DNA from: Isurus oxyrinchus
Taxonomy: Eukaryota
NCBI GenBank assembly: GCA_026770705.1
Contig: JANJGN010000021.1
Coordinates: 98,084,001 to 98,148,000 of the forward strand
DNA: 64,000 bases
Direction: 5' to 3'
Each line of letters begins with the position of its first letter. The first letter of the stretch is position 1. Shown here piece by piece: positions 14,609 to 47,396 of this stretch. The notes under the pieces are model-generated. The model was not told the origin of the DNA. It ran no database searches and was given only the letters and a program-made list of their open reading frames with translations. Both the position numbers and the translations under genes were made by a program.

Positions 14609-15502
14609 TCAATTACTAAAGTGAGCCAGAGGCTGCCTGACTATATTCTTTAATTCTTCTCCGAATTTACGCGGAGAAACTCTATAAAAAAATGTATTTG
14701 TGCAAGAACTCAAACTCCTAAGCCTATATCCCCACTGTTCAACAATGGTGCTGGGGTGGTTGTAATCTGTCTCTAGAAATGTTATATCTGTAAATTGCAC
14801 AAGTATAAAAATATAAAAACTACCACCCATAACAGTAAGAAACTGCTAGGAATAGGGACAAGTAAAATTATATATTTCCTGCGGTTCTCCATCTCCGCAT
14901 CAGTTTGGTGATGAATATCAGTGTTTCCTCTGAGTCCACTTCGAACTCTATTGGCCAGTATAATATATCTGATTGTCAGAAAATTTAGAAGTAATATCAT
15001 CAAAGTGGCGCAAACGGAATTACAATGGTTTCCATCCACAGAAATGCTATCCATGCTGGTAAGGTGTAGAAACGTGATTTCACACAGCAGTGCCACGGTT
15101 GATTGTCAATTACTTCTCGAGGCTCATACATGAAGTAGATTGGAATATTTTCAAATATGCATAGGAGAATCACTAATGTTGGCACCATAGCTGCAGTTTT
15201 GTCTGTACAATATTTCTTTTGTAACGTTTGGTGGCAAATAGCAATAAATCTATCAAAAGTAAACCCCACCTTTAACCAAACAGAGCTATCAATGGAAGTA
15301 AACAGCAGAGCGAAATTGAGACTGCAAACAGGTGTGTAATTCAAGAATGAACGTGGAAAATATTTCCCTTTAGTTACATACAGCATTATTTGAAATATCA
15401 GGACCATGAGATCAGCTGCTAACTTGGTCACCAGATAATGGGTGATGCATTTTTACAGCCCATATTTTCCACGGGAAAGAATAACGATTGTCACCAAATT
15501 AT
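14609..15502 (-). pseudogene. GPR139-like: GPR139-like class A GPCR pseudogene, copy A, exon 2
   Basis: NLVTIVILSRGK..., LAADL, SVWLKVGFTFDRFIAIC, ENIP, DAEMENRRK, FLLLW, SSCTNTFFY. Three frameshifts (~15457, ~15003, ~14810). The acceptor reads ttgcAA instead of AG. Confidence 0.92.
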
Positions 15503-16554
15503 TTGCAAGATACATTAGTAAATGAAAAACTATCTTTCCCGTTAGAGGATTATCAACTGACAGTTCAGTGTAAGACATTTAATGAATACGTTTTCTGGTT
15601 AGCCAAACCTCACACTATTCCCCCAATATGCCGGATAAGTTTAGCAATTCTGGAAGTAACTAACAGTTTGCTGAGCTGCATCAAAGGGAAATGGAAAATC
15701 AGCAGTCCTTGGCATAATTAGGCGATATCCAGTCGCAACATTTATAATTTGCATCGATCCCCTGGATTACCAGGATCTTTCATCGAAGTTGTGACGAGGG
15801 AATGGGAGAAGTGCCTTCGAAAATGAGCCGCGGGAACCTGAGTTCTGCCGTGAAGAGGGAACTTGGGCTCTTTCCTGTTTTAAATGTGTAGGCTTTTAAT
15901 ATGAGCAGGCTGCTTTGGGTGGAAATGTTCCTAGGGCAGGAATGCTGAAAAATAGATATCCCATAATCCGTCTAAATAATGCTGGGCTGACACTGAGTTC
16001 AATTGAAATCAACAAAACTGCAAGTCATAAGCGGAGGTATATGCAAATAAGTAAGATGGGTTCCTATCCGTAAGTGGGAATGAATATATAACAGTTATGA
16101 ATCTAGGTGTTGACAAAATCTCCCTTTTCCGCCCATTCAGATCAATGAAAGCGGCAATATTAGCCTTACGCAAATGATGTAATTCTGAATGTTTCTATCA
16201 CCTTATTGTTGACCCTGGGGATACAGATGAGACCCTCATCCGCCACTCCCTACCAGACTGATGAAAAGGGCAATACCTTTGCTGTGTTACGGGTGTGAAC
16301 TGGAATTTATAAAAACGACAGTACAACTGTGTCCGGAGTTACTTGATTATCAGTCTTCCTATGTATTTTAATATTTCACAACGGTTAGTGGCTCTAAATT
16401 AATGTGGCGTATGTATATGACGCACTTAAATGCATCAGGTTGCACTGCAAATATTAATGCTAGAAATTTGCCCGCTTTCATGAGCAAACCTAGCGCCAAC
16501 ATAGAACAGCCATTGTAACCACGCTTTTCCATAGTCAGAAACATAACAACAATG

Positions 16555-16653
16555 TTCTGATAATGAGACATACGGGCTCGAAACGTTAAATATGTTCCTC
16601 TCCGCAGATGCTGTCATGCCTGCTGAGTTTTTCCAGCTATTTTTGTTTTGTTT
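16555..16653 (+). repeat. Isolated old Penelope pseudo-LTR/hammerhead tail fragment in the copy A intron
   Basis: ttctgataa...ctcgaaacgtt...gatgctg...cctgctgagtttttccag, homologous to 11101-11200. Confidence 0.75.
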
Positions 16654-16738
16654 AAGAAATATCATTACACCGGCAAGAGTGTAACTGAAAAAAAAATCTA
16701 TAATAAGGAGAATTATTAACTGATGATGAGAGACTTTC

Positions 16739-16808
16739 CAGGAACACCAACTATCGCCAGAACAGGGTAGTAAATATTTTCTATCTGTTGTATTAAAGGC
16801 AGCTCCAT
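16739..16808 (-). pseudogene. GPR139-like: GPR139-like copy A exon 1 (70 nt, phase 1)
   Basis: ATG at 16808 encodes MELPLIQQIENIYYPVLAIVGVP+G, the same length and motif as copy C exon 1. The donor reads GAaagt instead of GTaagt. Confidence 0.9.
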
Positions 16809-16866
16809 GACCAGAGAAAGGCGATGTTGCCTTCTGGTGCTATGAGACTGCTTACATTCTGCTGTC

Positions 16867-16873
16867 ATTTATA
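16867..16873 (-). promoter_or_regulatory. TATA box of copy A
   Basis: TATAAAT about 60 nt upstream of the ATG, positionally conserved with copy C (41869-41875). Confidence 0.6.
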
Positions 16874-16964
16874 ATCGAGAAAGATCTCTAGTGGCATTCG
16901 AACATCGCAAAATGTTTAGCATTGCCTGCATTCGTTGGGATAAAAAGCATAAAGCAAGCCATCT

Positions 16965-17745
16965 GTCTCGCTAGGAACCGGGTTCATGTTGAATTGAATT
17001 CTTCATTTGCAGAGTAAACAGCAAGGAGAGGACCCCTTACGGAGTTCCAAATGAAATATTTCGACATTTACATTGATATTGTAAATTTAGACGAAAAACA
17101 ACTTCTGAAGGTCAAACTATGATTAAGTTGGCATGGAAAACAGCAGCATATTTTGGAGATGGTCCTCTGCTGCTGTGTTGTTAAGGGCACCTCCTTCAAC
17201 CTTTCCTTTATCACAGCATTCTTGCTCGGTGCGTCTATGTTTCGCTTTCCCTTGCATTGATTTATATGCCTTTGCGAGTACCTTTTGAATATGTAACGTA
17301 ACGTAATGCCATTTATTGAAACAGGGTAGCTCTTGGTTCGCAGAAATGTCTTGTTTAGAGATTTGTAAATTTGACATCTATGAAAGAAAATGCAAATAAT
17401 AAAATTATGATCAAGTTACAATGTGTTTCAACAAAGCAAAAGACTATGCCTTCCGCACATAGTCTGATTCACACAGTAAATTGAACCATTTTTAATATAC
17501 ATATTTCAATTTTTCATACGTTCTTCATGAAAACATTCGTAGTTCTCGACGGTCAAATTCAGGATACAGCGTAACAACAACCAATAATCACTATAAATTT
17601 AAGTAGGCTTTCATGTCGAACAATACGGGTTCTAAGTTCGAACTGTTACCGTGTTCCACCTGACAGATGTACTTAATATTCGAGCTGAAACAATGGAACC
17701 AAGTTTTCGCCTGCTCTGTACATGTTGTTACTAGCCAGGAATAGA
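16965..17745 (-). mobile_element. Probable Crypton-type (DUF3504 tyrosine recombinase) fossil with a 142-nt intron
   Basis: Mixed frames: NLEPVLFD...ENYE | GT 17519..AG 17378 | YKSLN..LRTKSYPVSI..QKVLAK..QGKRN..GALNNTAAEDHLQNMLLF..EEFNST*TR. These match the order of CryptonA/ZMYM DUF3504 motifs. Confidence 0.45.
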
Positions 17746-18689
17746 TAATTTTCTGATTAATTTACGTTAATCCAGCGAAATGGACTAAAATGTTATGCTA
17801 ATTTAGCATGTGCAAATTTGAGCAGCTCGATAGAATGAATTCACGTTTGTGGAATATAATTAGGTGATTGGCAGCGTTGACTTCACCGTTATGTTTTTTA
17901 AAATTAATTTAGGGGACGTTAGCATTGCGCAATAGGCGAGCATTTCCTGTTAGCAGTGTCGGATTGAATAGTGTATACATACAATGGTATACATTTGACG
18001 TAATTGAAGCAGAATAGTAAAATTCACAAAAGGTGCAGGTTAAAATCAACCCGTCATTTGAAAATTTCCCTTGTTTCGAACAAGGCGCCGATGAATGTTC
18101 TCTACATTCCGGTTGTTATCACGAAGGCGTTGTCTTTGAAAATGCACAGGAGTTCGCAAATCTATCATTGCCAAGACTGATGATTGTTAACGCGTTCAAC
18201 TACTTATTATGATTTCATCATGTCAGATAAATATGAATCTATCGACAGCAAGCAGTTCATATCATTCGTGTTTGAACCAGTCGTTTCTTCAAGCCTTGAA
18301 TTAATAATGCTCCATAGGCATTATAATTCTTTCGGATAAAACTAGGTATACAATCAAAGTCAAAGAAGGAAACGTGATTGAATGTCTGCTGCCTTTGAAG
18401 GCGTTTCACTATAACTGAAAAAAAACGCAAGCCACAAATCAGAAAGGAAAACCAATAACAGGAAATTCAAAGCAAATCACTCAGTATAAATTAAGAGGAA
18501 CAAACTTAACAGTCTGAATCTAATGGGGGAGTGTGTGCATGTACGTATGTTTAGTTGGTGGAGGGATAGGGTTTGGGGGATTGGTTTTGGGGTGTTGCGC
18601 TCTTGTTTTCCTTTCGACTGCCCATTTAAAAAATGCCTTCCAAACCGATTGAATTTATTGAAAAAATCAGAAGCCCGCAGTGAAATTCC

Positions 18690-19940
18690 GAGGCCAAAAT
18701 TGGTCAAGAAAGTGAATTTTATGACGCCATAAGCGCAACAACTTTCACTCTTTTTTGATTATTCCCGCACGCTTATAAACTAATGCTATGTGTCACTGGC
18801 TTTCAAGCTAGACCCATGTTATTTAGAGATGGATGATGATTTTCATTGGTGGAACCGGCCGGCTGACAATGCTACATCTATGGGCCGCTCATTTAAGACC
18901 CTCCATACAAATGCTCCCGTGCATCATTCGCTGGGTTAATCCGTTCCTTGAGAGTGGCATATTCTTTGCAGAGATGAGCGAATGAAGGAGCAGTGCAGCC
19001 CAATGATACAGCGATGCCTCATTGCACGTTCACCATCAGGCTATTATGGAAAAGGTGCTCTTTTTTCTGAAGATGGCATAATCAGGCCGCTGTACAAAGC
19101 AAGGAGGCTGGACAAATCAGGAATAAGGTGGCATGCATGCACAGATTATTATTGCGATTAAATGTGAAGCAATCAAACTGTAATGAAACTTAGTTTACAA
19201 ATAACCTCCATCCAAGGGCCAGCCCTGAGCCAAGATGGATTGCCGAAGAATCCATCTCTGGGCAGTTGGCAGGCGAACACCCAAAATATGCATTGTCATC
19301 TTCTCCAAAAATCCTCCATCACGAGTACAATTGCATCCATATGGCCCTGGAAGCGTTCGCGATTAGATTCCAGAGGAGAATCAGGCTCGCACAGGGCGGC
19401 AACACCAATGTTACCAGGGATGATGTGACAGACGCGCCCCCAAGCAATCGCCAAACAGCTCTCTGATCGATGCCTCCTTGAGCCAACCCGGATGCTTAGC
19501 CTCTATTTCCGGCCAGAGGAAACCGAGTTGACAGCAGGGCAAAACATGGCCGATATGCCAAGAATTCTACGTAGTTTTCTGTGGTGTATGGAGCAGTCCA
19601 CTCTGTTAATGACTTCTGTCATGTCCCAGGCATTTCAGCACGTGATGAATTCCAAGAAGAAGATGGCAACAACCATTGCGAACCGGATCGAGCATCCGAA
19701 TCATGTATGTTTTCACCTGCGTTTCACAGATCCATCCATGAGCTGAAAGCGGCAGTGGCTAGGCAAGAGGGGGAAGAGGCATACGGAGTAGGGATAGATA
19801 GTCCTATTTTTGTCTTAGCATGCTGTAACAGTGTGTCTGAGCGCCTCAGATATCTCGCCAGGCGTAACAACATTTTTAATACATGTATATAACACTGCCT
19901 TGGAGGAAAGATACCAGACGTGAGCTGGCCAGTTTTATTT
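18690..19940 (+). mobile_element. Harbinger remnant carrying the Myb/SANT-like accessory ORF
   Basis: AQ*YSDASLHVHHQAIMEKVLF..EDG..RP at ~18998-19100 resembles the APRFSDASL..LL.AV...VLFP.DG Myb-like N-terminus. Ends are approximate. Confidence 0.45.
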
Positions 19941-19989
19941 TCAATTACACCAAAATACATTGGAATGTAAAGTATCAATGGTATGTAGA

Positions 19990-20720
19990 CAATTTGCTAA
20001 AGGATATGCATTGATTAAGTGAGTGGCCACAAGAATGGCAGATGGAGTTTAATGTAGGAAAATGTTACCTTCTCCACTTTGACCGGAAGGATAGAAAATA
20101 TGAAAACATATTTATATAACGAGAGATTCCAAATCTTGGTGGTATAGAGGAATCTGAATGTCTTGCTAATTGAATGACAAAATATTAGTATGCATTTACA
20201 TCAAGTGATTAGGAAAGATACTTGAATGTTGGCACTGATGAGAAGTAGAGCAGAATATAGAAGTAGGGAAAACATTTGGAGCTGTACATGCACGCGTGAG
20301 GCGTCATGACGTGCAATGTGTATAGTTTTGGAAAATGTATAATTGAGCTGGAAACAGTTCCAAAAAGGTTCACTTGACACATTCATGAGGTGAAGGGTTT
20401 TTCCGATGACTCCATCTCAATACTTAGGTTAAAAATGTTAGGCCTAAAGGCATTTCAGGTTTGGTGCAGGAGAAGTAATGTAAACGAAACATACGCTGTG
20501 CAGAAGAGAGTTGACAGGATGGTTAACAGGATGATGTTCCCTCTTCTGAGGAAAACTGGAATTGGAGGACACCGTTTCAAAATGAGGTCCCGGTTTTAAG
20601 ACAGTGATATGGACATTGTTTTTCGTCCATCATTAGTATGTGCAATTCTTTCCACAGGATACAGTTGAGGGTGCTCACTGAATTCATTCAGGCTGAGTTA
20701 GATGACTTTTCGATGGACAA
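19990..20720 (+). mobile_element. Degenerate CR1-clade LINE 3' fragment
   Basis: LSEW..WQMEFNVGKC, LE.V.KRFT and GHRFK motifs. Confidence 0.8.
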
Positions 20721-21099
20721 CTCCAATACATTCAAAATATCTTAGACATCTCCTTTTTTGGATCATTGCTGACACTGCAGAGTTAATGACATTAATTTTC
20801 ACAAACATGAGAAGAGGTTGTTCTCTAAATAATTGAACAAAACATACAAGCATTTCATGCTTCAGATTACAGCTTCTCAAAGTAATGTTATTATGTTATT
20901 CAGGTTAGGCAAAACATGGTTTAAGATATATCTATGTATATCATATTCCGCCTTGGTAAAACGCCACAGATTGCATTAGATGTGACTTCTGCAGATGACT
21001 TTTTTTTTACTATGCACCCTACCGGTTAAGTTGGGAACCTTAGAAATAGTGACAATTACTTGGCCATTGCACACAATCTACAAACAACGCAATACATTC

Positions 21100-21530
21100 T
21101 CACGCACCCTCCTGCCCACACCAACCAATGAACATATGCATGTTGCACTACAGACACCAGGAGATGATTACTCACCTAAGATACAGCCAACTGACCGAAT
21201 ATCAATCCCTTTGATTGCCCAACGGCCCTCACAGGCATTACCCTCCCAGTGCGCATCCAACTCAGCTCCCAACCCCAACTACCCAAACCCAGCCGCCACT
21301 ACCGATTTTGCGACTGCGCTACCCACCAGACTGTCCAGCCAGGATTTGGCCTTTGACCCTACGAGCCAGCCTATGGATCCTAGTACCCACACACCTGAGG
21401 CGAATACCGGAAAATGAACCTCAAAACTTACATAACCACGTACATATTCACGCACCCAGCTAAATGCCCAGCCACTCAATAAGCTACCCACTCACTCCAG
21501 CATTCTCCCTGCCACTCACCCAGCGAAATA
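21100..21530. repeat. C/A-rich low-complexity tract (CACC/CCCA)
   Basis: Degenerate cacc/accc/ccca units that produce the P/T-rich ORF 20995-21417. Confidence 0.6.
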
Positions 21531-22356
21531 TGCATTTCTTCAGTGGCACAATAAAACTCTAAGCAACCTAATAAAAATAAAACTAAGCTGAATATCACAA
21601 GTTGAATAGAACGCAGACATTGGATCTCCACTATTCCCCTTCTCCATTGTTCATTATGGATGGCTGCGCCGAGGTACAGCGACAACCGCTAGGGGAGGGC
21701 AGCCAGGACCAGCAACTGGAGCGTCTTGAGGAGCAGAAACCGCCAATAGTGCCTTGGGCAAATATTTAGACTTTTCCGCTGCTGTGCTCATGTGCCTTTT
21801 GCATTATAAGACCTGCGCCCACAAGTATTCGTTGGCTAGGAAGTTTGAACGTCCATGCTCAGATTTGCGATTGTCATCCTTCTCAGAGAACGTTTTCGAT
21901 GCTGACCTCAGTGTGGGACTCTTGAAAGCGCTGCACAATATTCATGCTACCACTGAGGCTGGTCTTTTCCCTTTGTTAGCTCCTGGCATTTGTCAGTGAT
22001 GATTGATACAGCACAATATTACATCTTAACGAAGCACAGCGCTATCAACTCTCCAATTTTGCCCAAGCAAATTGCCACAGCTACCTGATAACCACCCATC
22101 GTGACAAACTACTGCGCCATTGTAAACCACCCTACCTCCCCAACACCACAACCCCCCAACCCTCCCTCCCCAGGACCCGGCTCCCAAGGCCCGGCTGGCT
22201 TTCACCCCCACTGAAATCGCACCCACTAACACCTACATGCCCTCATCCTCGTTTATTCTCCTAATAACCCACTTACCCTCCGGGGGATGCTGATAACCAA
22301 CCTACCATTTCGGTTCTTCGAGGGTGTATTAATTGCCAAAGTTAAAATGCCCATTT

Positions 22357-23287
22357 TTATTTAATTTGTTGAAACCATTTACAATAAGAAAATGAATATC
22401 GTATCAGAATCAATAGAATATAAATCGCATTTTGCAGTTCTTCCCTGAATTTCCTCTGAGAAACTGAATAAATAAACGTGTTTGTGCAGCAACTCAGGCT
22501 CTTCAGGATAAATCCAGATTATTCGAGGATGGTAAAAGCGTAGTTCAAACTTGTTTCTGAAAATTGAGAATCGGTAAATTGTACACATACAAGGTGGGTT
22601 ACAAATACTACCACCCACAAAAGTAAAAAAATCCCGGCTATAGCAAGCAATAATTCCATTGATTTTCTTCGGTTCTCCATCTCTGCGTCATTGCGTTTCA
22701 CACCATAGTTGGTTCCGTGGAGTCCCCGCCTCACTCTATTGGCCAGGACAATGTGCCTGATGGTCAAAGCATTCAGCAAGAAAATCGAAACATTGGGATA
22801 AAGGGGGTTAAAAGTGTGCCAATCAAAAATGCTACGCATAGGGGCGTTGTATACAAGCTTGATATTACGTAGCAGTACCATGGTAGGCTGCTAATTATCG
22901 GCCGAGGTTCATATGCAAAGTAGATTGGAACACATTCTAAAATGCTCAGGGGACACAGCATTGTTATATCCACAGTTGCAGTTTTAGCTGTGTAATACTT
23001 TGTTCGAAGCTTCTGACAACACATGGCTATAAATCGATCAAAGGTGAACGCGACAGTTAACCAGACAGAACTATAAATGGAGAAAAAAATTAAGGCGATG
23101 TTAACACGGCAAATGGGGGTGTAGTTCAGAAGTGAGTATGAAAAATAAACGTCTTTAACCTCATACAGGATTACATCAAATATCAGGACGAATAGATCCG
23201 CTGTGGCCATGGTCAACAAATATCGAGTGATACATTTGGAGAGCTTGCAACGTCCACGAGAGAGAATTACAATTGTCACCAGATTAT
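22357..23287 (-). pseudogene. GPR139-like: GPR139-like class A GPCR pseudogene, copy B, exon 2
   Basis: Intact acceptor ttcttttcAG at 23288. NLVTIVILSRGRCKLSKCITRYL, MATADL, FTFDRFIAMC, DAEMENRRKS, LSCCTNTFIY. One 1-nt frameshift at ~22785 and a premature TAA at 22519-22521 (Q in paralogs). Confidence 0.92.
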
Positions 23288-23499
23288 CTGAAAAGAAAGG
23301 GGAATCAAATTACTAATTCTCTCCAACTGAAAGTAGGGTCAGCCGACAGTTCTTTGGACGAAAATCCATGCTCACTGTCTTTTTTTGTTTTGATCAAACC
23401 TATGTGAAGTGCAGAATCCAATTTCGGAATCGGAAGTACTATTTCAAAATATGGCAATGACACGGACTTGGAGACTGTCAGTATTGCAGAGAACCGAAA

Positions 23500-24300
23500 C
23501 AACCTAGAGAAAGGCGCTATTAAACTTTGAAAAGGGATTGTATTTGGGAAGTGAATTTCAATATACTGAAGTTGATGCACTATGTTTTGGCAGAAAGAAT
23601 ATTCTCTCCGCAAACACCTTAGGAAATAAGTTTCCGGGTGTTAGAGTCGTATAGACGCATAACTCAGCAAAAGTAGCCACTTAGTGTATTAAGACTACAA
23701 ACATCAAACCCACTTTGCTTGTTTGTTTCTTCTGGGATGCAACTCCAAAGAAACCATTTCAAATTAGCATTGATCATTCACTGAGTTCAGTTAATATCTC
23801 TGCTCTGGATGTTATATAAATGATATAAAGACAATCCGAAGTTGTAACCCAGAGTGGCAAGAGTACAGTAACGAGGCATCTATAACGAAACATTGAACAC
23901 AATGAAACTATTTACGTTAAATACGAGAGCACTGGGACGTGCCTCGTCGAAATGTTTAGGATTGTGAAAGGACTTGAAAGGGTTTACGTCGGAAGTATGT
24001 TCCCATTTGCAGGACGGCCTAAAATAAGCTGCTAGTGATGTAAAATTGTCAATAAAGAATCCTGTAAATAATTCAAGAGATGCTTATTTAAATGGGATTT
24101 GAAAAGAATGCATAACTGACTGTCATAAGAAGAGGCAAAAAGCACTTCGGGCGAAACTACCTGAGAACATGAAGGAGAAAGCAATCGAACAGAATCTTAA
24201 TGGAGTTACATGGAAAAGGGCGGAAGAAGATTCGCGTGAAACATGCATAGCGGCACTTTACCGTTGCGACGATTGTCCTATTATTATGCTGAACGTACGT
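23500..24300 (+). mobile_element. Highly degenerate CR1 3' fragment
   Basis: EMFRIVKGLERVYVGSMFP-like segment at ~23950 and a degenerate 3' UTR. Confidence 0.5.
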
Positions 24301-29921: not shown

Positions 29922-30167
29922 ATAAAAACAAAGAAAACTGCGGATGCTGGAAATCCAAAACAAAAACAGAATTACCTGGAAAAACTCAGCAGGTCTGGCA
30001 GCATCGGCGGAGAAGAAAAGAGTTGACGTTTCGAGTCTTCATGACCCTTCGACAGAACTTGACAAGTTCTGTCGAAGGGTCATGAAGACTCGAAACGTCA
30101 ACTCTTTTCTTCTCCGCCGATGCTGCCAGACCTGCTGAGTTTTTCCAGGTAATTCTGTTTTTGTTTT
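29922..30167. mobile_element. Penelope pseudo-LTR fold-back insertion (perfect 105-bp inverted repeat plus 35-nt tail) with a 14-bp target-site duplication
   Basis: Arms 29957-30061 and 30063-30167 are exact reverse complements around a single A at 30062. caataatttagcag occurs at 29908-29921 and 30168-30181. Confidence 0.95.
30065..30103 (+). ncRNA. Minimal type I hammerhead ribozyme-like motif (mirror copy on the minus strand at 30021-30059)
   Basis: AGUU-CUGUCGAA-GGGUC-AUGAA-GACUC-GAAA-C-GUC-AACU. Stem I AGUU/AACU, stem II GGGUC/GACUC, palindromic ACGU stem III, GUC cleavage triplet. The core has U where the canonical CUGA has A. Confidence 0.65.
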
Positions 30168-36700: not shown

Positions 36701-36784
36701 GTAGAACTGATTACTACCTTCGTCCTGACACGTCGGCTTCTAAATGGAGGCTGTAAGACTTCCTCCGATATACATCAGCGGAAA

Positions 36785-36880
36785 TAGTTCAATAATAATA
36801 ATTATTAGTATTGTTTGTATTACTACTATTATTATCGTTCTTATTATCATTTTATTAATATTATTATTATTATTGTTGTT
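36785..36880. repeat. (ATT)n microsatellite
   Basis: Imperfect att/aat triplet run next to the 3' end of a minus-strand HER1. Confidence 0.85.
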
Positions 36881-36884
36881 TCTT

Positions 36885-37410
36885 TCACGAGGTGTGCGCC
36901 ACAAACTATGTCAGAATTTTTTGCCCGTCACTAATTTCCGTTAAGGAAGGCGGTGGAGAAACACACTTTTGACCCATTGCATTCCGCGTGGTGTTGTTGT
37001 GCCCACAGAGCTGTTAAGAAGGGAATTCCGGAATTTGGACCCAACAACAATGAAGATACAACGGTATACTTACAAGCCAGGTATGTGGCTTAGAGGGGAA
37101 CTTGCATGTGGGAGGCTTCCCATTCGCCTGCTGCACTTGTCCTTCTTGGTGGCAGCAGTTGCCGGTTCGGAAGGTGACATTGAAGAATCCGTCTTGCGTT
37201 GTTCCAGTGCACGTTGCATATAACACACAGACCGCTGCTACAGTGCATCGGTGTTGACAGAGTGAAAGTTCAAGGTAGTGGATGGAGTGCCCATGAGGAG
37301 AGTTGATTTGCCCCTGATGGTGTCGAGATTCTTGAGTACTGTTGAACTTGCACTGATCCAGGCAAGTGGAGAGTATTCCATCGCGCTTTTGGCTTGTGCT
37401 TTGTAGGATC
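36885..37410 (-). mobile_element. HER1 LINE 3' fragment
   Basis: Reverse complement of the HER1 tail and C-terminus (TCKFPSKP). Confidence 0.8.
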
Positions 37411-37419
37411 ACAGAGAGA

Positions 37420-40400
37420 GAGAAACATAGGAGCAGAAGTAGGCCATTCAGCCCCTCGAGGGTGCTGCACCATTCAAATTGATGTTGGCTCATCATCTCT
37501 CTCGACGCAAGTTTTTTGTGCTTTCCCCAAATCCCTAGATGCCATTTGATTCTGGCATTCTATCGATCTCTGTCTTCAGCATACTCAATGACTGTGTTTT
37601 CACAGTCCCCCGGGGTGGAGAATTTCAAATACTAAAGTTATCTCCTCATCTCACTCCTAAGAGACTTGTCCCTTACTCTAAAACTATAATGCCTGCTTCT
37701 AGAACACCAAGCCAGGGGAAACAACCTTTCTTCATCTACTCTGCCTGGCCCTTTAAGAAAGTTTCAAGTTTTAATTAGATCATTTTCAATTCTCCTGAAA
37801 TCTAGAGAAAACAATCCCACTCTCTTCAATTTATGCCAATAGGAGAGTTCCGCCATCCTAGGAATTAGCCTGGTGAACTTCCTCTGCACTCCCTCTATGG
37901 TATATATATGTTCCTTAAGTGAGGGGACCAAAACTGTATTCAATACCCCTCGTGAAGTCTAAGCAATTTTCTATACAATTGAAGTAAGGCATCTTTACTC
38001 CAGTATTTAAAATCCTCTTGCAAGAAATGCAATAATTGCTTGCTGCACCTGCATAATCGCCTTCACTGACTTTTGAAGGACACCCTTCTTGACATCAGCA
38101 CACCTGTCTCTCGCCATTTAATAAGTAGTCTACGACCCGATTGCTCCAAACGAAGTGGATAATATCACACTGATCCACGTTACATTCTATTTGTCATACC
38201 CTTGCCCACTCAGTAATCCTAACAAATCCTCTTGAAGCCGCTTTGTGTTGACCTCATAACCTATTCCCACGTAGCCTTTGTCATCAGAAAAAGTGGAATT
38301 GTTACAAAATTGCCACATGCAATCATTAATGTAGAATGTGAATAGCCTAGGCCCAAGTACTGATCCTTGTGGTGTCCCAATGGTCAAAGGCTGCCAACCT
38401 GAGAATGAAGCATTTATTCCTACTCTCCATTTTCTCTCCGTTAACAAATTTTCAATCCATGCTAGAATATTACCCCCTAACTCATGTGTTGTAATTGTGT
38501 TTACTGACTTGTGTGGAAACTTATCAAAAACCTTCCAAACAGCCAAATGAAGCACACCCACTTCCCCAACCCCCCATATCCATTCTGTTGGTAGCGTCCT
38601 CAGAAAACTCCAACAGGATTGTCAGGCATGATTTTCATTAGAAATCCATGTTGACTCTGCCCAAACAAATCAGTATTTTCTACGTTTTCTAGATATTCCA
38701 TCCGTTATGATAGAGTCCAGCATGTTCCTTCCTATTGACTTCAGGCAAACAGACCTATAGGCCCTCATTTTCCATCTTCCACCTTTCTGAAGCATTGGGG
38801 TTGTCTTTGCATGTTTCCTTCCACTCTACAGGGCCATTCCATTATCTGTAGAACTGTGAAAGGTGATCACCAATGCATCCACTATTTCTGTAACCACCTC
38901 TTTCTACATTCTTGGACGTAGATCATCGGTCCAAGAGATTAAGCAAATTTCAGGCACGTTAATTTCTGAAACATTTCTTTTTTTACACACGCTAATTCCT
39001 TCAGCCCCTCATTCTCACTCGTCCCTTGGCTTGCTCTTACCCATTGGAGATTCATTATACCTTCGTCCATGAAGGCAGACATAAAATAAGTATTTATCTT
39101 CTCTTTCCTTTCTCTATTCTCCATTAAACATTCTCCTGTCTCTGCCTGAATTGACGGACATTTGTCCTTGCCAATTCTTTCCTTTTTTCCATGCCAATAG
39201 AAGATTTTGTAGTCCAGTTTTATATGTCTCGCTAGTTTACATTCATATTCAATTCTACCTCACTTTTTCAGTTTCCTAGTCTTCCTTTACTAAATTTTAA
39301 AATGCCCCCAATCCTCAGGCTTACAACGCTTTTTCAGAATCTCATCAGCCTCTTCGTTTGACCTAATACAATCATTAACATCCGTGCTTAGTCACGATTT
39401 ACTCACTTTTGGAATTTTGTGCTCAAAAGAAATGTATGTTTGCTGTAAAGCGCATATTAGTTCTTTAATTGTAACCCACTGTCTGCCTACTGCCATACCA
39501 TTTAATGTGTTCACCCATTCCATTGTAACCAACCTTCATAACTGAATTTGGTTAGTGTTAAGACCCTAGCTTTGGAATTAATCCAATAGTTTTCAAACTT
39601 ATTGAAATATTTGATCTTATTATGTCACTCTTCCTAAAGGAATCTTTTACAACAAGATTTTTATTAGCCCTGTCCTATTGCAAAATGTAAGATCTAAAAC
39701 GGCTTCTTCTCTAATTAGTTCCTCGACATACTGCTCTAGAAAACCATCTCGGACACAATCCACGAATTCGTCCTCCACACCATTAATGTTCAACATATTT
39801 ACTAGTAAAGCAATAAGTGGAAGTGTCCTATGATTACTGAATTACCCTTGTTCCATGCACCCCAAGTTTGTTCATTTAAACCGTGCCCTGCGTTATAGCT
39901 ATGACTTGGTGGGCTGTAAACAACTCCAGCTAATGTTCAACAAAAAACAGAAAATGCTGGAAAAGTTCAGCAGGCCTGACAGTACCTGTGCAGAGAGAAA
40001 AAAGTTAAAGTTTCGAGACCGGATGACCCTTCTTCAGAGCTGAATAGAAGTTACAATGTGATGCAATTTATAGTGTTTGAAGGGGTTGGGGAAGGTGGAG
40101 CTGGATACAAGGCCAGTGATACGTGGAGAAAAAAGAGAGAGATTGACAAAGATGCCATGAACTAAACGACAAAGGTATGGTTATTGCTAGTGCTGTTGGC
40201 CTCTGTTGTTTCTCAGCTTCACCCAAGCTTATTCTCCATTCTGTTCTTCAGATGAAAGATCATCTCTCACTAATCTACTGGTGTCAACTTACTGTCGGCG
40301 CCACCGCACCACCTTTTCCCTTTTGACTGTCCATCCTAAATGAGAAAATTCCTTAAATATTCAGTTGCCAGCCTTCGTCACCCTACCGCCACATTTATCG

Positions 40401-40970
40401 ATTCGTGACATCAATTCACCCACCTTGTTGCAAATTCTGTGTGCATTCAGATAGACTACATTAATTTTTCCCTTTTTAAATATTATTCCTTATTTTGACT
40501 TTATTGTTGCTGGTATTTGTTTCGGGTGCTTCCCAATTTTGTTTACCAATTTTGTACTTCCCTTTATGAGGTTTGATTTTCTCCTATCTGAATTCCATCT
40601 CAGGTTCCTGTTCCCTGACAGGCTAGTCTAAACTCTTATTAATAACACGAGCAAATCTCCCCACATGCATATTAGGCCCTGCCCCGATAAAGCGTAGCCC
40701 TCCTCCTTGTATTGGTCCCAGCTGCCCCAGAACCAACGCATGGGTCCCATAAATCGAACGCCCTCCCTCCTACCATGTGTCCGTTCGACCAACTTTGCTA
40801 TTTCTATACGCACTAGCACGTGGTAGTGGTCATAATCCTTAAAATACTGCCTTGGTGGTCCTGTTTTTCGATCAATTTCCTCGCTCCCTAAAACATATTT
40901 CCACATATGTCATTGTTACCAATATGGATCACGATCTTTAGCTGTTTTCCCTCCGCCTAAAAAATGTCCT
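37420..40970 (-). mobile_element. Long degenerate CR1 LINE (ORF1 remnant, APE, RT, 3' UTR)
   Basis: KVFDKFPH, WIENLL and GTPQGSVLGPRLFTFYIND. The 3' end is at 37420 (cataggagcagaagtaggccattcagccc). An esterase-like ORF1 remnant lies at ~40600-40950. Confidence 0.85.
39938..40190 (-). repeat. Penelope pseudo-LTR fragment inserted in the CR1
   Basis: Minus strand reads ctgaagaagggtcatccggtctcgaaac...cctgctgaacttttccag, a hammerhead core with canonical CUGAAGA. Confidence 0.75.
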
Positions 40971-40974
40971 TTTT

Positions 40975-41310
40975 GATGGCGGGCAGACTTTGGGAATCAT
41001 TAGGTGAGAAAGGTGTCGCATAAATCCCAGCCTTGAACTGCTCTTGGAGCTATATTCTTTATACGGCTGGTTCAGTTCAGCTTCTGGTCAATGTTAACCT
41101 CCAGAATGTTGATCTGCAGAAGTAATACTGTTGAATGTCAATGGGAGATGGTTATATTATCTCTTGTTGGATATGGACATTTCCTGGCACTTGTCCGTCG
41201 AGAATGGCATTTGGCACTGGTCAGCCTTAGCCAAAATATTCTCCAGTTCTTCCTGCAAATAATCATGACAAGTTCACTATTTGTGGGGTTACGCGAGGTT
41301 CTGAACTGAT
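40975..41310 (-). mobile_element. HER1 internal fragment
   Basis: Reverse complement of DQKLN*TS and AKCQ-type segments. Confidence 0.65.
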
Positions 41311-41765
41311 ACATTTGTCACTCTCTTCGCGCAACAGCTGTTAGTACTCCAAAATTCCAACTTCCCTGTATATATATGAGGCTAATTAAAAGTACACAGT
41401 TTACCATAACACTCCCTTGGTGTTGAATTCTAAAAGCTCTTCGACGTCACGTGGACCACACAGCCTTCTGAATAAGCAATGGAGTCAATTTGTTAATGTA
41501 TTTAGTATATTAAAGCAAATAAGAACTAATATTGTTAGTAGTTAAGACAAATAAAATTAACATGTCCCAGCAATTTCATTTATTACGTAAAATTCCCGTG
41601 TATGAACCTAAAGATGAACAATGCTCATCTTTAAAAAATGTTGTACTTTAATTTTATTACTGAAAATGTCAATAAAATATTCTTTGGAATATGGGATAAC
41701 AATAATATCCTGATCGTCTTGCTACTTCAATGAGCAATGTCACCGCAAATTAACCTGATCCCTGG

Positions 41766-41875
41766 CCAATAGTATAGAAAGCGGCTTGTCTAACATGTTT
41801 GTTCAAATGACTGTAACAAATGTCAATCAGCACGTAATGCCCGTGTGCCACTTTTCGTTTCTCTCAAGTATAAAT
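41766..41875 (+). promoter_or_regulatory. Proximal promoter of copy C (CCAAT 41766-41770, TATAAAT 41869-41875)
   Basis: TATA lies 66 nt upstream of the ATG. Short blocks (ggcttg, tgccact, tataaat, cata.cac) are colinear with the copy A upstream region. Confidence 0.6.
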
Positions 41876-41940
41876 ACGCCCTGTTTTGAAAACACATATG
41901 CATGTCCATAACACGAATAGAGAATGCCTCTTGTCATAAA

Positions 41941-42010
41941 ATGGGTCTGCCAATAATCATACAGATAGAAAACATATACTATCCTATTCATGCGGTGATA
42001 GTAGTTCCTG
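41941..42010 (+). CDS. GPR139-like: GPR139-like copy C exon 1 (70 nt, phase 1)
   Basis: MGLPIIIQIENIYYPIHAVIVVP+G followed by a canonical GTAAG donor. Homologous to copy A exon 1. Confidence 0.85.
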
Positions 42011-42749
42011 GTAAGGCAACTACTATCAATTCATATTTCGGTTGACTATGTGTTCTTCTTCTCCTACAGTCGCTCCAATTATAATTTCAGCATGTTTTTA
42101 CCTGCCTTATTTACGGGCAAGCACTACTGCCATGTAAAATCTAAAACAAAATGCTCCAAGTTTGTGCATTGGGCGTTTTGGACCAGATATCGCGAAAGTA
42201 AATAATTGGAGGTTAACAGCGCTTACCATAACATGAGCTCGAGAAACACCTTCAAGGTCACTACATATGCAGTCAAACATGGTCATCAGAATGTTTAGTT
42301 CTCAGAATTCCCCCTCCTCCAGTAGCCATTTTATTGTATCTCGCCGGGATCATCGGCAATTAATTATATTGGATGACGCGGTGGTGCTAAAATTTATTCA
42401 TTATCAAACAATGATTATCATCGATGTTATTTCCCACCTGTCACGACGTGCAAACTGTCCTTCAGTGTCCAACGTGAGTCGAATGCTGTATACAACTCGT
42501 GTATTGTGTTTAATTTCCTATAAGCTAGTTAATTAAGCTGTGCTAATGCTAACGTGGGTAAATATTGAGGGGGGAAAGCTGTGACCATAATGACAACCCT
42601 TCTCTTGCCATGCCTCAGTATAACTATTTTCATTTTTGGTGAACGGCATGTAAAAAGAACATATCAACAGGTAATATGATAGCTATGATTGTGTAATCGT
42701 TTCTTAGTTCATGTAAATAGACGGCAAGCAGCACTTAATAATTTTCACG

Positions 42750-43720
42750 CTTTCCACGAGGCATTAATTTTCAGAATACTTAGCCTGCTCATTGTAAAGC
42801 TACCCTATCTTTTATACCACTGCTGTCGGTGGAGAGCCTTTGATTTACCTTTATCTACCATGTGCTCCCGTTCTCTCGGATTAGCTGAAACATTTATTGA
42901 AGTTGTGCTGGGACATCGGGAGAAAGCCCGTGGAAACTCAATCTTAGGCATGTTATTGCTGCTTTGAAAAGTAAACTTGGGATGGATTGCAGTCGTCAGC
43001 ATCTCACTACGTCTTAAGAATCTGACAACTTAGTGAAATAGAAATTTGCCTTCCTACTTCGGCAGTAGCGGTGTACAAGTTTCAGCCTGTTACCATGCTT
43101 GATTGGTGTTCAGTGCTCTCAGCCCAATTTAACTGACGAGATATCACAAATTAGCGCACTCACGCTTTTCCAAAAGCAATTAAGAACAAAAATTTCGCTG
43201 CGATAAGCACAGGAGACAACAAAACGCGCCGGACATTTCTGACATCGAAATTAACGGACGACATATCTTGGCTTACACCTGAAGACATAACTTTTGAAAT
43301 ACGTCCCTTTATGTGCCTTGGTTAGGTAAATGTAGGACAGCAACGGTATATGAACTAAAATATACCTCAAAGCATCGATACAAATCACCTGATACTACAA
43401 CTTGACATTAGCCCTTTCGGAAAACAGCGCTGATATGACGTGAGCTAGTATCCTGTCTTTCGCATTACTGTTCATAGCGACGATAATATTGTTCAATACA
43501 TTTAATAATATCTTGCAGATTATCCCCAGAAAAAGAAATTTGTGGGTCTTCAAATTATTTGTAGAATGTGTATGCGGTTTTGTTATTGAAGTTTTCGTCA
43601 AGCAAAGTTCAGTAAAGCACAGCGTCCTCTAGAGGAACTCGGTGACCAGCTTCAATGAAATAAGGAACCGCGCATTCCCTTAAACAATCACGCTGAAGAA
43701 TTTTCAATGTCTGAACAATA
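42750..43720 (-). mobile_element. Probable ancient hAT transposase remnant in the copy C intron
   Basis: LKTHKFLFLGIICKILLNVLNNI and TSINVSANPRER...MSRLSILKIN (dimerization-domain-like). Confidence 0.4.
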
Positions 43721-43789
43721 ACGGATGAGTTAAAATCATGATCTCCTTGTGAAACACAGAGAGAAAATGAAAAATTAGGAAAGAGTGGC

Positions 43790-44760
43790 TGTAATAACAG
43801 GAAAAAGTGTCAGAGGTTCGATAACATTAATGTAAACCTACCTAGTCTTCAGAATCTCAGCAAATTGACATAGGGACTGACAAGGTATTAGAGGTGTTGG
43901 CAGGCTTAAAAGGAGGCAAATCTGCAGGTCAAGATGATTTATGTCCCAGACTTCTGAGGGAGGCAAGGGAGGAGATCGCAGGGGCTCTGACCCAAATTTT
44001 TAATTCCTCTCTGGCCACGGGGCAGGTGCCAGATGACTGGAGAACAGTTAATGTGGTTCCACTGTTTAAAAAGGGTTGTAGAGATAAGCAAGTGAACTAC
44101 AAGCCTGTGAGTCCCACATCAGTGGTAGGGAAACTATTCGAGAAAATTCTGAAGGAGAGAACCTATCTCCACTTGGAGAGGGAAGCTTTGATCAGGGGTA
44201 GTCACCATGGTTTTGTCAGAAGGAGGTCATGCCTAACAAATTTGATTGATTTTTTTGAGGAGGTGACCAGGTGTGTAGATGAGGGTAGTGGTGTTAATAT
44301 AGTTTGTATGTATTCCAGCAAAGCCTTTGACAAGGTCCCACATGGGAGTCTTATAAAGAAGGCAATGCACAAGGGATACAGGGTAATTTGTAAGGTGGAT
44401 TCAAAATTGACTTAGTTCTATGATACAGAGGGAGATGACGGAGGATACTTTAGTGACATAGAAGCCAGTGTCCAGTGGTGTAATACAGCGATCTGTGCTG
44501 GGTCCCCTATTATTTGTCATTGATATAAACGACACCATGTGGTGGGTAGGATTAGTGACTTTGTGGATGAAACAATGATTGTCCGGGTGGTTAACATGGA
44601 AGTGGAGTGCCTTGGCCTACAGGAAGATACAGATGCGATGGTCAGATGGGCAGATAAGGGGCGGATGGAATTTAACCCTGAAAAGTGTGAGGTTACACAA
44701 TTTGGAAGGTGTAATTTGACAAGGAAGTATTCAATGAACGTCTATATGCTCTCCAGCGTG
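43790..44760 (+). mobile_element. CR1 LINE RT fragment in the copy C intron
   Basis: ORF 43894-44415: KSAGQDDLCPRLLRE, VPDDWRTVNVVPLFKKG, HGFVRRRSCLTNL, KAFDKVPH. Confidence 0.9.
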
Positions 44761-45093
44761 ACTCGACAATTTGCAGATAAATAATGCTGATCATAATTAG
44801 CCTAATATTTTCTTGTTTTCGAAATAATGTTTCACAACTATTAAGAATCGCACCCTGAAGGAATATTCGATGCTCTATTGGTTGTAAAACGCATTATTCG
44901 ACATTCTACGATCATGAAAGTAGCTGGAGAAATGCGAGTCTTTCTTTTCTTTTTAACAACTTGGTGAAAGATAAAGGGAGACAATTGAATGTCAGAAAGA
45001 AACAAATCATGAATTTTCATATAATTTTCATTATCTCTTGACCCTTCCTTAGATACGGTTTAAGGTAGTAATTACATTTTCTCCTTCTTGCAA

Positions 45094-45987
45094 CGAATTT
45101 GGTCACAATCATCATTCTCTCTCGTTGCAAGTGTGGTCTCTCCAAATGTTACCCGTTACCCGGTAGCCATGGCAGGGGCTGACATCATGATCGTAATATT
45201 TGAAGTGATACTCTATGAGATTAAGGATGCGTACTTTCCTTATACGTTCCTAAACTATACTCCCATTTGTAGTCTCAATATTGCACTGCTTTTTGTTTCC
45301 ATTGATTGTTCTGTCTGGCTAACAGTTGCGTTCACCTTCGATCGATTTGTCGCTATTTGTTGCCAAATTCTGCAAACAAAATATTGCACTTCCCAAACTG
45401 CTGCTGTAGTTATAATAGTTGTGTGTTCAATATGTGGTTTGCAAAATATTCCAATCTATTTTATTTATGAACCACGGGAATTCGTTGGCAATATCCCATT
45501 GTCCTGTTATGTTAAGTCAATCTTCTACACCTCGCCCATTTGGAAAGCATTTTTCTGGTTGGAAACCTTCCTAACTCCATTTCTTCCATTTGTTCTTATT
45601 CTACTGCTCAATGGCCTGACCACAAGGCACATATTGATGGCGAACAGAATCAGAAGTGGACTACGAGGTAACAGCAATGTTCAGAATAAAAATGACCCAG
45701 AGATGAACAACCGCCAGAAGTCGATGATTTTATTGCTCACTATCTCAGGCAATTTTATACTATTATGGATGGTAATTTTCGTATGTTTCCTATGTGTGCA
45801 GTTTGGCGATGTGCAAATTTTTGAAGCTAATTATAACGACCCTTTCACGGTAATAGAACAATCTGGGTATATGCTGAGCTGTTTGAGCTCATGCATGAAC
45901 ACGTTTATATATGCAGTGTCACAGAGCAAATTCAGAGAGCAACTGAAGAATATCATTAAGCATGCCTGGCTCCCTTTACGAATATAA
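45094..45987 (+). pseudogene. GPR139-like: GPR139-like class A GPCR, copy C exon 2 (probable recent pseudogene)
   Basis: Exon 2 in the exon 1 frame reads ANLVTIIILSRCKCGLSKC, then a 2-nt deletion (~45148) shifts the frame. The acceptor is ttgcAA at 45092-45093. Downstream TM2-TM7 is open: MAGADI, FTFDRFVAIC, QNIP, DPEMNNRQKS, FILLW, SSCMNTFIY. Confidence 0.88.
45169..45987 (+). CDS. GPR139-like: Residual intact 272-aa TM2-TM7 reading frame of GPR139-like copy C
   Basis: Open from ATG 45169 to TAA 45987 with AATAAA at 45991-45996. Whether it is translated is unknown. Confidence 0.4.
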   Translation: MAGADIMIVIFEVILYEIKDAYFPYTFLNYTPICSLNIALLFVSIDCSVWLTVAFTFDRFVAICCQILQTKYCTSQTAAVVIIVVCSICGLQNIPIYFIYEPREFVGNIPLSCYVKSIFYTSPIWKAFFWLETFLTPFLPFVLILLLNGLTTRHILMANRIRSGLRGNSNVQNKNDPEMNNRQKSMILLLTISGNFILLWMVIFVCFLCVQFGDVQIFEANYNDPFTVIEQSGYMLSCLSSCMNTFIYAVSQSKFREQLKNIIKHAWLPLRI

Positions 45988-47300: not shown

Positions 47301-47389
47301 AAGGGTCATGAGGACTCGAAACGTCAACTCTTTTCTTCTCCGCCGATGCTGCAGGACCTGCTGAGTTTTTCCAGGTAATTCTGTTTTTA
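47301..47389 (+). mobile_element. 89-bp Penelope hammerhead-tail insertion with a 7-bp target-site duplication
   Basis: Near-identical to the palindrome arm. ttccaga occurs at 47294-47300 and 47390-47396. Confidence 0.85.
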
Positions 47390-47396
47390 TTCCAGA

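What the first reader, a model, noticed from the sequence alone, without database searches (positions are those of the whole stretch)
14609..45987. Birth-and-death cluster of an uncharacterised elasmobranch GPR139-like GPCR family with a conserved two-exon, TATA-driven architecture
Seen: three clearly diverged paralogs share unusual signatures: DRF in TM3, N-T-F-(I/F)-Y in place of NPxxY in TM7, D(A/P)EM(E/N)NR(R/Q)K before TM6, and (in A and C) an N-terminus of only ~12 residues. Copies A and C have an identical 70-nt exon 1 with a phase-1 intron in TM1. All three carry lesions at different stages of decay: A has 3 frameshifts and both splice sites lost, B has 1 frameshift and 1 nonsense codon, C has 1 frameshift and the acceptor lost. 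Established: mammalian GPR139/GPR142 are single-copy aromatic amino-acid sensors, and tandem arrays of short-N-terminus class A GPCRs with many pseudogenes typify chemosensory families (OR, TAAR, V1R). Inference: this may be a piece of a lineage-specific amino-acid or peptide sensing receptor repertoire in cartilaginous fish. It is the best candidate here for an undescribed system.
Basis: partly seen in the sequence, partly recalled or inferred. Interest (0 to 1): 0.8.

Follow-up and report, generated by a model that had tools for sequence, protein, structure and literature searches.

The report
Expanded shark receptor family, dead copies
This stretch of shark or ray DNA holds three broken copies of a cell-surface receptor gene that has multiplied many times in sharks and rays, with a fast-changing binding pocket, while its closest frog and newt relative stayed a single gene, so it may be an overlooked chemical-sensing or immune receptor repertoire.

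Summary
The three class A GPCR copies are real and all look dead, but several lesion counts were wrong. Exon 1 of A and C is the same length (70 nt), not identical (51/70). B has no exon 1 in the window. The family is large and elasmobranch-wide: 113 of the top 120 hits are named sharks or rays (16 species), with up to 26 per species, mostly on one chromosome. It is not GPR139 itself. Its sister is a one-per-species amphibian/sturgeon gene (100/99), so it is an expansion, not a lineage-only gene. The basic residue at 6.51, which GPR139 uses to bind Trp/Phe, is kept in 20/20 amphibian and 42/42 other single-copy relatives but in 0/120 close family members. Pocket sites are nearly invariant in amphibian orthologs (pocket/non-pocket ratio 0.06-0.13) but differ 1.2-2.8 times faster than other TM sites between shark paralogs. 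Best reading: a ligand-diversified sensor repertoire under birth and death. Tissue, ligand and dN/dS are untested, so chemosensory versus immune is open. Ten paper searches found no description.

The parts
16809..17108 (-). Copy A promoter region, homologous to that of C; TATAAAT at 16873-16867 with a TGCCACT box 16 nt upstream (same spacing in C)
   Evidence: 0 of 1000 control windows reach the A/C score; promoter activity not tested
16739..16808 (-). Copy A exon 1, 70 nt, phase 1; donor changed GT>GA
14600..15502 (-). Copy A exon 2 (pseudogene): acceptor AG>AA, nonsense 15455-15453, frameshifts ~15004 and ~14810, further stop 14611-14609
   Evidence: 18 of 136 conserved columns altered
22357..23287 (-). 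Copy B exon 2 (pseudogene): acceptor intact, frameshift ~22792, 3-nt loss ~22824, nonsense 22521-22519; no exon 1 found in the window
   Evidence: 18 of 124 conserved columns altered
41641..41940 (+). Copy C promoter region; TATAAAT at 41869-41875
41941..42010 (+). Copy C exon 1, 70 nt, phase 1; donor GT intact
45094..45995 (+). Copy C exon 2 (probable pseudogene, least decayed): acceptor AG>AA, 2-nt deletion ~45150, 1-nt deletion ~45965; open from Met 45169 to stop 45985-45987
   Evidence: 13 of 137 conserved columns altered
43846..44412 (+). LINE-type reverse transcriptase fragment inside the 3083-nt intron of C
   Evidence: RVT_1, E 2.3e-5

Best explanation
The window is part of a cluster of a large elasmobranch class A GPCR family, and the three copies here are dead or dying members (shown from sequence). 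The family arose by repeated tandem duplication of one gene that amphibians and a sturgeon keep as a single copy (shown by tree and search). Intact members are about 324-aa receptors with almost no N-terminus, a TM3-ECL2 cysteine pair, a conserved intracellular face (DRF, D-x-E-M-x-N-R-R/K-K-S before TM6, N-T-x-I-Y) and a highly variable pocket (shown at protein level). Inferred mechanism: each paralog binds a different small peptide or metabolite in the helical pocket and signals through one shared G-protein route, probably Gq/Gi as for GPR139. Together they form a repertoire for varied outside cues, most likely in chemosensory cells of the nose, skin or gut. Copies are gained and lost in each lineage. 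Ligand, G protein and tissue are inferred, not shown. Confidence that the three copies are non-functional is about 0.9; that the family is a ligand-diversified repertoire of some kind, about 0.7; the figure below is for the chemosensory version.
For: Copy number and clustering: 1680 hits among 2495 candidates; of the 120 listed, 26 Heptranchias, 24 Heterodontus, 18 Pristiophorus and 17 Rhinoraja. 22 of 24, 16 of 26 and 15 of 17 share one contig length in Heterodontus, Heptranchias and Rhinoraja. 96 clusters at 50% identity score E<=1e-30. Species-restricted clades occur in the 126-row tree. Pocket variation: between same-species paralogs the 27 pocket positions differ 1.2-2.8 times as often as other TM positions, against 0.06-0.13 for amphibian orthologs and 0.49-0.74 for the second single-copy clade at matched divergence. 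Pocket sites make up 17 of the 30 most variable TM sites in the wide family (p 4e-8), 11 of 30 in the top 120 (p 0.006), 0 of 30 in amphibians and 3 of 30 in the other single-copy clade. Pocket changes are more radical than changes at tolerant sites in 3 of 4 species (BLOSUM<0 in 42-47% against 22-31%). [quoted passage not shown] The wider superclade has chemosensory precedent: Atlas neighbours carry the Srw chemoreceptor domain, and a 'probable GPR139' is among osphradium-enriched genes of a snail (PMC10638732 passage).
Against: There are no expression data at all. The catshark top-50 'brain & olfactory epithelium' list held no GPCR (PMC11979771 passage; a weak test, since single receptor genes are low-expressed). 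In Heterodontus pocket and tolerant sites change alike (0.275 vs 0.29, similar BLOSUM), and in Rhinoraja pocket sites change less often than tolerant ones (0.315 vs 0.391). Within the top 120, pocket entropy is not significantly above other extracellular-half TM sites (p 0.15). Pairs are not independent. Pocket positions were chosen by generic numbering (recalled), not from model coordinates. The 65 wide-set proteins are unnamed and may include pseudogene ORFs or non-elasmobranchs. Without DNA, relaxed constraint cannot be separated from positive selection. All three copies here are broken.
Confidence: 0.4

Rival explanations
1. Same diversified repertoire, but immune: receptors on granulocytes, mast-like cells or barrier epithelia that detect microbial or damage-derived peptides, working like FPRs or MRGPRs.
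For: The same pocket hypervariability, clustering and turnover fit pathogen-driven families equally well (FPR/MRGPR behaviour recalled). Even canonical catshark OR genes are expressed in spleen or stomach rather than the nose.
Against: No expression evidence. The family is not related by sequence to chemokine, FPR or MRG receptors beyond general class A similarity: the top PDB hits are GPR139, PrRP and TRH receptors.
Confidence: 0.27
2. Largely neutral expansion: repeat-driven duplication in a LINE-rich region with relaxed constraint on the pocket, most copies being redundant or on the way out.
For: 3 of 3 copies in the window are broken. The region is rich in retroelements. In two of four species pocket sites do not change faster than tolerant sites. 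Many database entries are 277-278-aa models that lack TM1.
Against: The intracellular half is strongly conserved (0.62 bits in the top 120, 1.08 in the wide set, against 1.45 and 2.59 in the pocket). 50 of 120 hits are full-length canonical proteins with a median of 4.5 changes at conserved columns. The expansion is kept in 16 shark and ray species and has deep subfamilies.
Confidence: 0.18
3. Receptors for a set of endogenous neuropeptides or hormones, as for MIP/sex-peptide, FMRFamide and proctolin receptors in the same superclade.
For: The superclade consists largely of peptide receptors (PMC12208981 section 8; Atlas neighbours). The fold is closest to peptide GPCRs. The invariant pocket of the amphibian ortholog points to one fixed ancestral ligand.
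Against: Receptors for fixed endogenous ligands keep their pocket, as both single-copy clades do. Here 23 of 24, 17 of 18, 25 of 26 and 15 of 17 paralogs have distinct 18-site pockets, against 3 types among 20 amphibians.
Confidence: 0.1
4. Extra copies of a GPR139/GPR142-like L-Trp/L-Phe sensor (the database label taken at face value).
For: GPR139 is the top PDB hit for the family profile and for an intact member. GPR139 is also a two-exon gene (PMC7318219 passage).
Against: R6.51, E3.32, E3.29, D2.61 and N7.39 engage Trp/Phe or agonist in GPR139. Among 120 close members: basic 6.51 in 0, acidic 3.32 in 0, acidic 3.29 in 0, Asn 7.39 in 0, acidic 2.61 in 1 of 119. Copy C scores 22.8 bits against GPR139 but 117.6 against the newt gene. 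Structural identity is 22%, whereas true GPR139 is 70% identical between human and zebrafish.
Confidence: 0.05

Closest known systems
[quoted passage not shown]
   Same: This is that set: copy C is 77% identical to the best Heterodontus entry, and 113 of 120 top hits are named elasmobranch proteins, most with this label.
   Different: The label is an automatic best-hit name (others are called sex peptide, FMRFamide, galanin or vasopressin receptor-like). I found no paper treating them as a family.
Single-copy amphibian/sturgeon orphan receptor (e.g. Pleurodeles P0217, Xenopus tropicalis P0391, Acipenser P0407)
   Same: Sister clade (100/99; 99); about 24-26 residues before position 1.50; D-x-E-M-x-x-R motif in 21 of 21; 31% identity with almost no gaps.
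   Different: One entry per species in 20 amphibians; invariant pocket; keeps K6.51, P6.50, N7.39 and DRY, which the close shark family has lost.
GPR210A/B (Rinne et al. 2019, PMC6504862) and 'Orphan 139-like' (table in PMC5207463)
   Same: Non-mammalian orphan relatives of GPR139/142 reported from coelacanth, gar and teleosts. The second single-copy clade found here (teleosts, sturgeon, bowfin, coelacanth, amphibians, turtles, two sharks) is probably one of them.
   Different: Identity with GPR210 could not be checked because no sequences were given. That paper has 0 mentions of 'shark' or 'cartilaginous'. This clade lacks the D-x-E-M motif (0 of 23) and lies outside the shark-plus-amphibian clade.
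Mammalian GPR139 / GPR142
   Same: Nearest solved-structure relative by profile; no P7.50; two-exon gene.
   Different: About 22% identity; ligand-anchoring residues absent; the family has C3.25 where the aligned GPR139 has none; multi-copy rather than conserved single-copy.
Vertebrate chemosensory or immune GPCR repertoires (OR, TAAR, ORA/V1R, TAS2R, FPR, MRGPR)
   Same: Works like them in genome behaviour: tandem clusters, pseudogenes, lineage-specific clades, short N-terminus, variable pocket with conserved signalling face. The properties of those families are recalled.
   Different: Not a member of any by sequence: only 7tm_1 (66 of 66) and weak Srx (11 of 66) match in Pfam. It derives from the GPR139/MIP/FMRFamide-receptor superclade. 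Expression is unknown.

Membership tests
Class A (rhodopsin-like) GPCR | 7tm_1 domain and seven-helix fold | tested here: met
   7tm_1 in all three copies and 66 of 66 relatives; the model of intact relative P0001 has pLDDT 84.5 and matches peptide GPCRs at TM-score 0.7-0.78
GPR139/GPR142 superclade (with MIP/SPR, FMRFamide, proctolin receptors) | GPR139 is the nearest characterised relative; no P7.50 | tested here: met
   profile vs PDB E 2.7e-17, next 1.2e-12; T7.50 in 99%; Atlas neighbours of the amphibian sister are FMRFamide-receptor/Srw clusters. Foldseek alone does not single out GPR139 (rank 13)
GPR139 orthologs | High identity to mammalian GPR139 (70% even in zebrafish) | tested here: not met
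   22% against 70%; closer non-GPR139 relatives exist
GPR139 orthologs | Basic residue at 6.51 plus acidic 3.29/3.32 and Asn 7.39 for Trp/Phe binding | tested here: not met
   0 of 120 basic 6.51, 0 of 120 acidic 3.32, 0 of 120 Asn 7.39; 6 of 61 basic 6.51 in the wide set (residues)
GPR139 orthologs | Position in a tree that includes GPR139 and GPR142 | not tested
   No named GPR139 or GPR142 sequence was among the usable proteins; trees lack them
GPR210 / Orphan 139-like | Orthology to the named coelacanth/gar sequences | not testable with these tools
   Only Ensembl ids in the text; the supplement gave one table row and no sequences
OR / TAAR / ORA-V1R / TAS2R / V2R | Family-specific Pfam domain or nearest-neighbour relationship | tested here: not met
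   No 7tm_4, V1R, TAS2R or 7tm_3 match in 66 members at E<=0.01; none among the 60 PDB hits shown
Birth-and-death sensory GPCR repertoire (functional kind) | Many clustered copies, pseudogenes, lineage-specific clades | tested here: met
   counts are lower bounds from 120 listed hits, and the genome-wide pseudogene fraction was not measured
Birth-and-death sensory GPCR repertoire (functional kind) | Diversifying selection on pocket sites | tested here: inconclusive
   Protein-level excess of pocket change, mixed against tolerant sites in 2 of 4 species; no dN/dS possible
Birth-and-death sensory GPCR repertoire (functional kind) | Sparse expression in sensory neurons or chemosensory cells; activation by external ligands | not testable with these tools
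   No expression data; supplement searches gave nothing or were unreadable

The most novel reading that the evidence does not exclude
Sharks and rays have an unrecognised, large chemosensory receptor family, possibly outnumbering their known OR, TAAR, ORA and V2R genes. It was recruited from the GPR139/MIP/FMRFamide neuropeptide-receptor branch by amplifying one gene that amphibians keep single, and by discarding the ancestral ligand anchor at 6.51. It would be a vertebrate parallel to the nematode Srw expansion and would help explain how sharks smell with so few canonical olfactory receptors.
Probability: 0.3. Interest if true: 0.9.

Novelty: new variant of a known kind. Interest (0 to 1): 0.65.

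Why it matters
The literature I read describes cartilaginous fishes as poor in GPCRs and olfactory receptors: a 'relative paucity' (PMC8455134 passage), and about 50 olfactory-type genes in the catshark. Here one subfamily alone reaches at least 17-26 distinct proteins per genome in four species, within only the 120 listed of 1680 hits, and it hides under a misleading automatic name. The single-copy Xenopus/newt sister with an invariant pocket gives a handle on the ancestral ligand. Existing catshark tissue RNA-seq could decide nose versus immune versus gut at once. The window itself contributes only three pseudogenes and a conserved promoter.

Tried and rejected
A fourth copy or an exon 1 for B: none by tblastn, exon-1 profile or nhmmer. 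Lesions as pure assembly error: the frameshifts are small deletions, several in short repeats, so some could be consensus errors. However, nonsense codons, splice-site loss and an excess of changes at conserved columns (share 0.19-0.21 against a maximum of 0.18 in 50 intact proteins) argue for real decay; C is the least certain. Rescue of C by a cryptic acceptor: an AG ending at 45064 gives a 330-aa open frame but replaces half of TM1 including N1.50, and a better-looking acceptor 12 nt upstream stops after 26 aa; considered unlikely. The teleost 'GPR139-like' gene as the ortholog: rejected, because sharks have their own copy of it and it falls outside the clade. Foldseek did not discriminate among peptide GPCRs. 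Rfam: 0 matches. Pfam on 63 further ORFs: one RT fragment and one sub-threshold DUF. Cluster-member names could not be looked up, so the 50%-representatives, including the deepest family branches P0193 and P0179, have no taxon; holocephalan, lungfish or gar membership is open. Literature: ten searches found no description; the library lacks most subscription papers, and one shark genome paper asked for by id was not held. Supplements: the catshark sensory paper was unreadable and may hold the decisive expression tables. Whale shark: 12 of 24 files were searched, 0 hits. Skate (one file unreadable), retina atlas and cartilage paper: 0 hits. bioRxiv supplements were not available. No complex prediction or bacterial-genome scan was run, as neither bears on this.
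Full report
Verdict. The window holds three broken members of a large elasmobranch GPCR family that databases mislabel as GPR139. The family shows the genomic and protein-level pattern of a ligand-diversified sensor repertoire. What it senses, and where, is not shown.

What is in the window. Six-frame translation, tblastn and self-blastn find exactly three GPCR copies: A and B on the minus strand and C on the plus strand, 67-68% identical at DNA level, all matching 7tm_1. The rest is largely retroelement debris, with no Rfam match. A and C have a 70-nt phase-1 first exon, 51/70 identical. TATAAAT lies 65 and 72 nt upstream of ATG; a TATAAA falls in the comparable interval for 2.6% of sampled window positions. 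The 300 nt upstream align far above chance (171 vs mean 97, max 133; 0 of 1000), while the next two 300-nt blocks score 101 and 116. 55 of 120 relatives have the same Met-to-N1.50 spacing, which fits a shared first exon, although introns cannot be seen in protein data. B has an intact acceptor but no exon 1 or promoter in the window.

Lesions. From frameshift-aware alignment to intact relatives and the junctions and ends: A has donor GT>GA, acceptor AG>AA, one internal nonsense codon, two frameshifts and a further stop near the end. B has one frameshift, one nonsense codon and a 3-nt loss. C has acceptor AG>AA, a 2-nt deletion after TM1 and a 1-nt deletion near the C-terminus. The share of differences falling on conserved columns is 0.19, 0.21 and 0.19, above all 50 full-length canonical proteins (mean 0.09, max 0.18). 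The absolute counts (18, 18, 13) lie within the range of those 50 (median 4.5, max 21). Real decay is therefore likely, although small deletions in short repeats could partly be assembly error.

Size and spread of the family. Copy C finds 1680 proteins among 2495 candidates; only the best 120 were listed, so the make-up of the rest is unseen. Of the 120, 113 are named, from 16 shark and ray species, and 7 are unnamed. Heptranchias has 26, Heterodontus 24, Pristiophorus 18 and Rhinoraja 17. 22 of 24, 16 of 26 and 15 of 17 entries share one contig length in Heterodontus, Heptranchias and Rhinoraja, which I read as one chromosome each. A full HMMER scan of 50%-identity representatives gives 96 at E<=1e-30 and 175 at E<=1e-10. 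A FastTree of the 120, the three copies and 3 outgroups shows species-restricted clades mixed with cross-species ones; A pairs with a Mustelus protein (99), and C groups with Rhincodon and Heterodontus proteins. This is birth-and-death behaviour.

Where it sits. Among solved structures GPR139 ranks first for the family profile (E 2.7e-17; next 1.2e-12) and for an intact member, but it is distant: 22% in the structural match, rank 13 by Foldseek. Two closer non-mammalian clades turned up. One is a conserved clade in teleosts, sturgeon, bowfin, coelacanth, amphibians, turtles and two sharks; it is probably among the GPR210 subtypes of PMC6504862 (passages read; identity not checkable). The other has one entry in each of 20 amphibian species plus a sturgeon (25 hits among 1675 candidates, the other 4 elasmobranch). 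The shark family plus this second clade form one branch (99 in the 62-row quick tree; 100/99 in the 30-row careful tree) and share the D-x-E-M-x-x-R motif (114 of 119 and 21 of 21, against 0 of 23 in the other clade). Limits: GPR139 and GPR142 are not in these trees, the root rests on unnamed invertebrate-like proteins, family monophyly has only 82/63 support, and the deepest family rows are unnamed. Absence from teleosts and amniotes rests on a word-filtered search.

The pocket. In GPR139, R6.51 binds the Trp/Phe carboxyl and side chain by docking, with D2.61, E3.29 and E3.32 near the amine, and a basic 6.51 is needed for activity (PMC8807744 passages). A basic 6.51 is kept in 20 of 20 amphibian and 42 of 42 other single-copy proteins, but in 0 of 120 close family members and 6 of 61 in the wide set. 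Over 27 generic pocket positions (numbering recalled, anchored on P0001), mean entropy is 0.04 bits in amphibians against 0.40 in their intracellular half. It is 1.45 against 0.62 in the top set (119 of 120 kept by length) and 2.59 against 1.08 in the wide set (65 of 73 kept by length). At matched background divergence, same-species paralogs differ 1.2-2.8 times more at pocket sites than at other TM sites, against 0.06-0.13 for amphibian orthologs and 0.49-0.74 for the other clade. Against this: compared with sites that tolerate change in single-copy orthologs, the pocket is faster in Pristiophorus and Heptranchias, equal in Heterodontus and slower in Rhinoraja, though more radical in 3 of 4; and it is not significantly above other extracellular-half sites in the top set (p 0.15). 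So release of the ancestral pocket is shown; positive selection is not.

How it most likely works. Shown: intact members are compact seven-helix receptors (model pLDDT 84.5) with a conserved signalling face and many different pockets; copies arise in clusters and die often. Inferred: each binds a different small external ligand and uses a common Gq/Gi-type output. I put chemosensory use at 0.40, immune surveillance at 0.27, relaxed neutral expansion at 0.18, endogenous peptides at 0.10 and GPR139-like Trp/Phe sensing at 0.05. The superclade is otherwise known for MIP/sex-peptide, proctolin and FMRFamide receptors (PMC12208981 section 8 and passages). Its use in invertebrate chemosensation has some precedent (PMC10638732 passages; Srw-bearing Atlas neighbours; the origin of nematode Srw from this branch is recalled).

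Is it in print? 'GPR139' + 'shark' gave 4 papers and 'coupled receptor 139' + 'shark' gave 1, none on this family by listing or passage. 'GPR210' gave one relevant paper. Broader searches listed nothing relevant (listings only). Word searches of the main text found 0 mentions of GPR139 in the catshark sensory genome paper (section 13 read) and the catshark chemoreceptor paper, and 0 words beginning 'GPR' in the zebra shark paper; the whale shark paper has no GPR-numbered mention and instead notes a relative paucity of GPCRs in cartilaginous fishes. PMC7318219 was seen as passages. The library lacks most subscription papers, and unread supplements (12 of 24 files) could hold expression data, so 'undescribed' is provisional. 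The proteins themselves are already in NCBI under an automatic name.

Score. Interest 0.65. The window's own genes are pseudogenes, and the kind of system (an expanded, pocket-diversified GPCR repertoire) is known. But this instance appears undescribed, sits awkwardly with the view of sharks as receptor-poor, and is testable with existing RNA-seq and with the single-copy frog ortholog.

Noticed in passing
window 29957-30167: Near-perfect 211-bp palindrome (210 of 211) made of two head-to-head copies of a short interspersed element that also occurs at 11101-11237, 47301-47391, 16554-16653 (inside intron A) and near 39940-40040. It could be a real hairpin insertion or an assembly artefact.
   Followed up: partly
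window 1455-2052 and 7201-7802: Two 600-bp direct repeats (71% identical, both starting TGT) flank ORF fragments that look like a decayed Gypsy-type LTR element on the minus strand. The family assignment is recalled; Pfam gave no hit.
   Followed up: partly
window 9500-10514: Frameshifted ORFs resembling a Penelope-type element (RT followed by a GIY-YIG-like end); the resemblance is recalled and Pfam gave no hit.
   Followed up: no
window 15503-15504 and 45092-45093: A and C show the same acceptor change (AG>AA after TCTTGC) although they are not sister copies in the tree; probably independent transitions, unexplained.
   Followed up: partly
window 45064: A cryptic AG 29 nt upstream of C's dead acceptor would give a 330-aa open frame that bypasses the first frameshift but lacks half of TM1; gene predictors may call C intact.
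   Followed up: yes
P0217, P0388-P0407: An apparently unnamed single-copy orphan GPCR in 20 amphibian species and a sturgeon, with a nearly invariant pocket and unusual S1.50 and N2.50; a good deorphanisation target in Xenopus.
   Followed up: partly
P0355: The Stegostoma member of the single-copy clade is annotated as an isoform of 'transmembrane protein 183A', which suggests a fused gene model and a possible synteny marker.
   Followed up: no
alignment A1: Met50 in TM2 is invariant in 66 of 66 aligned members, and many database models start there (277-278 aa), lacking TM1; these may be truncated models or pseudogenes counted as proteins.
   Followed up: partly
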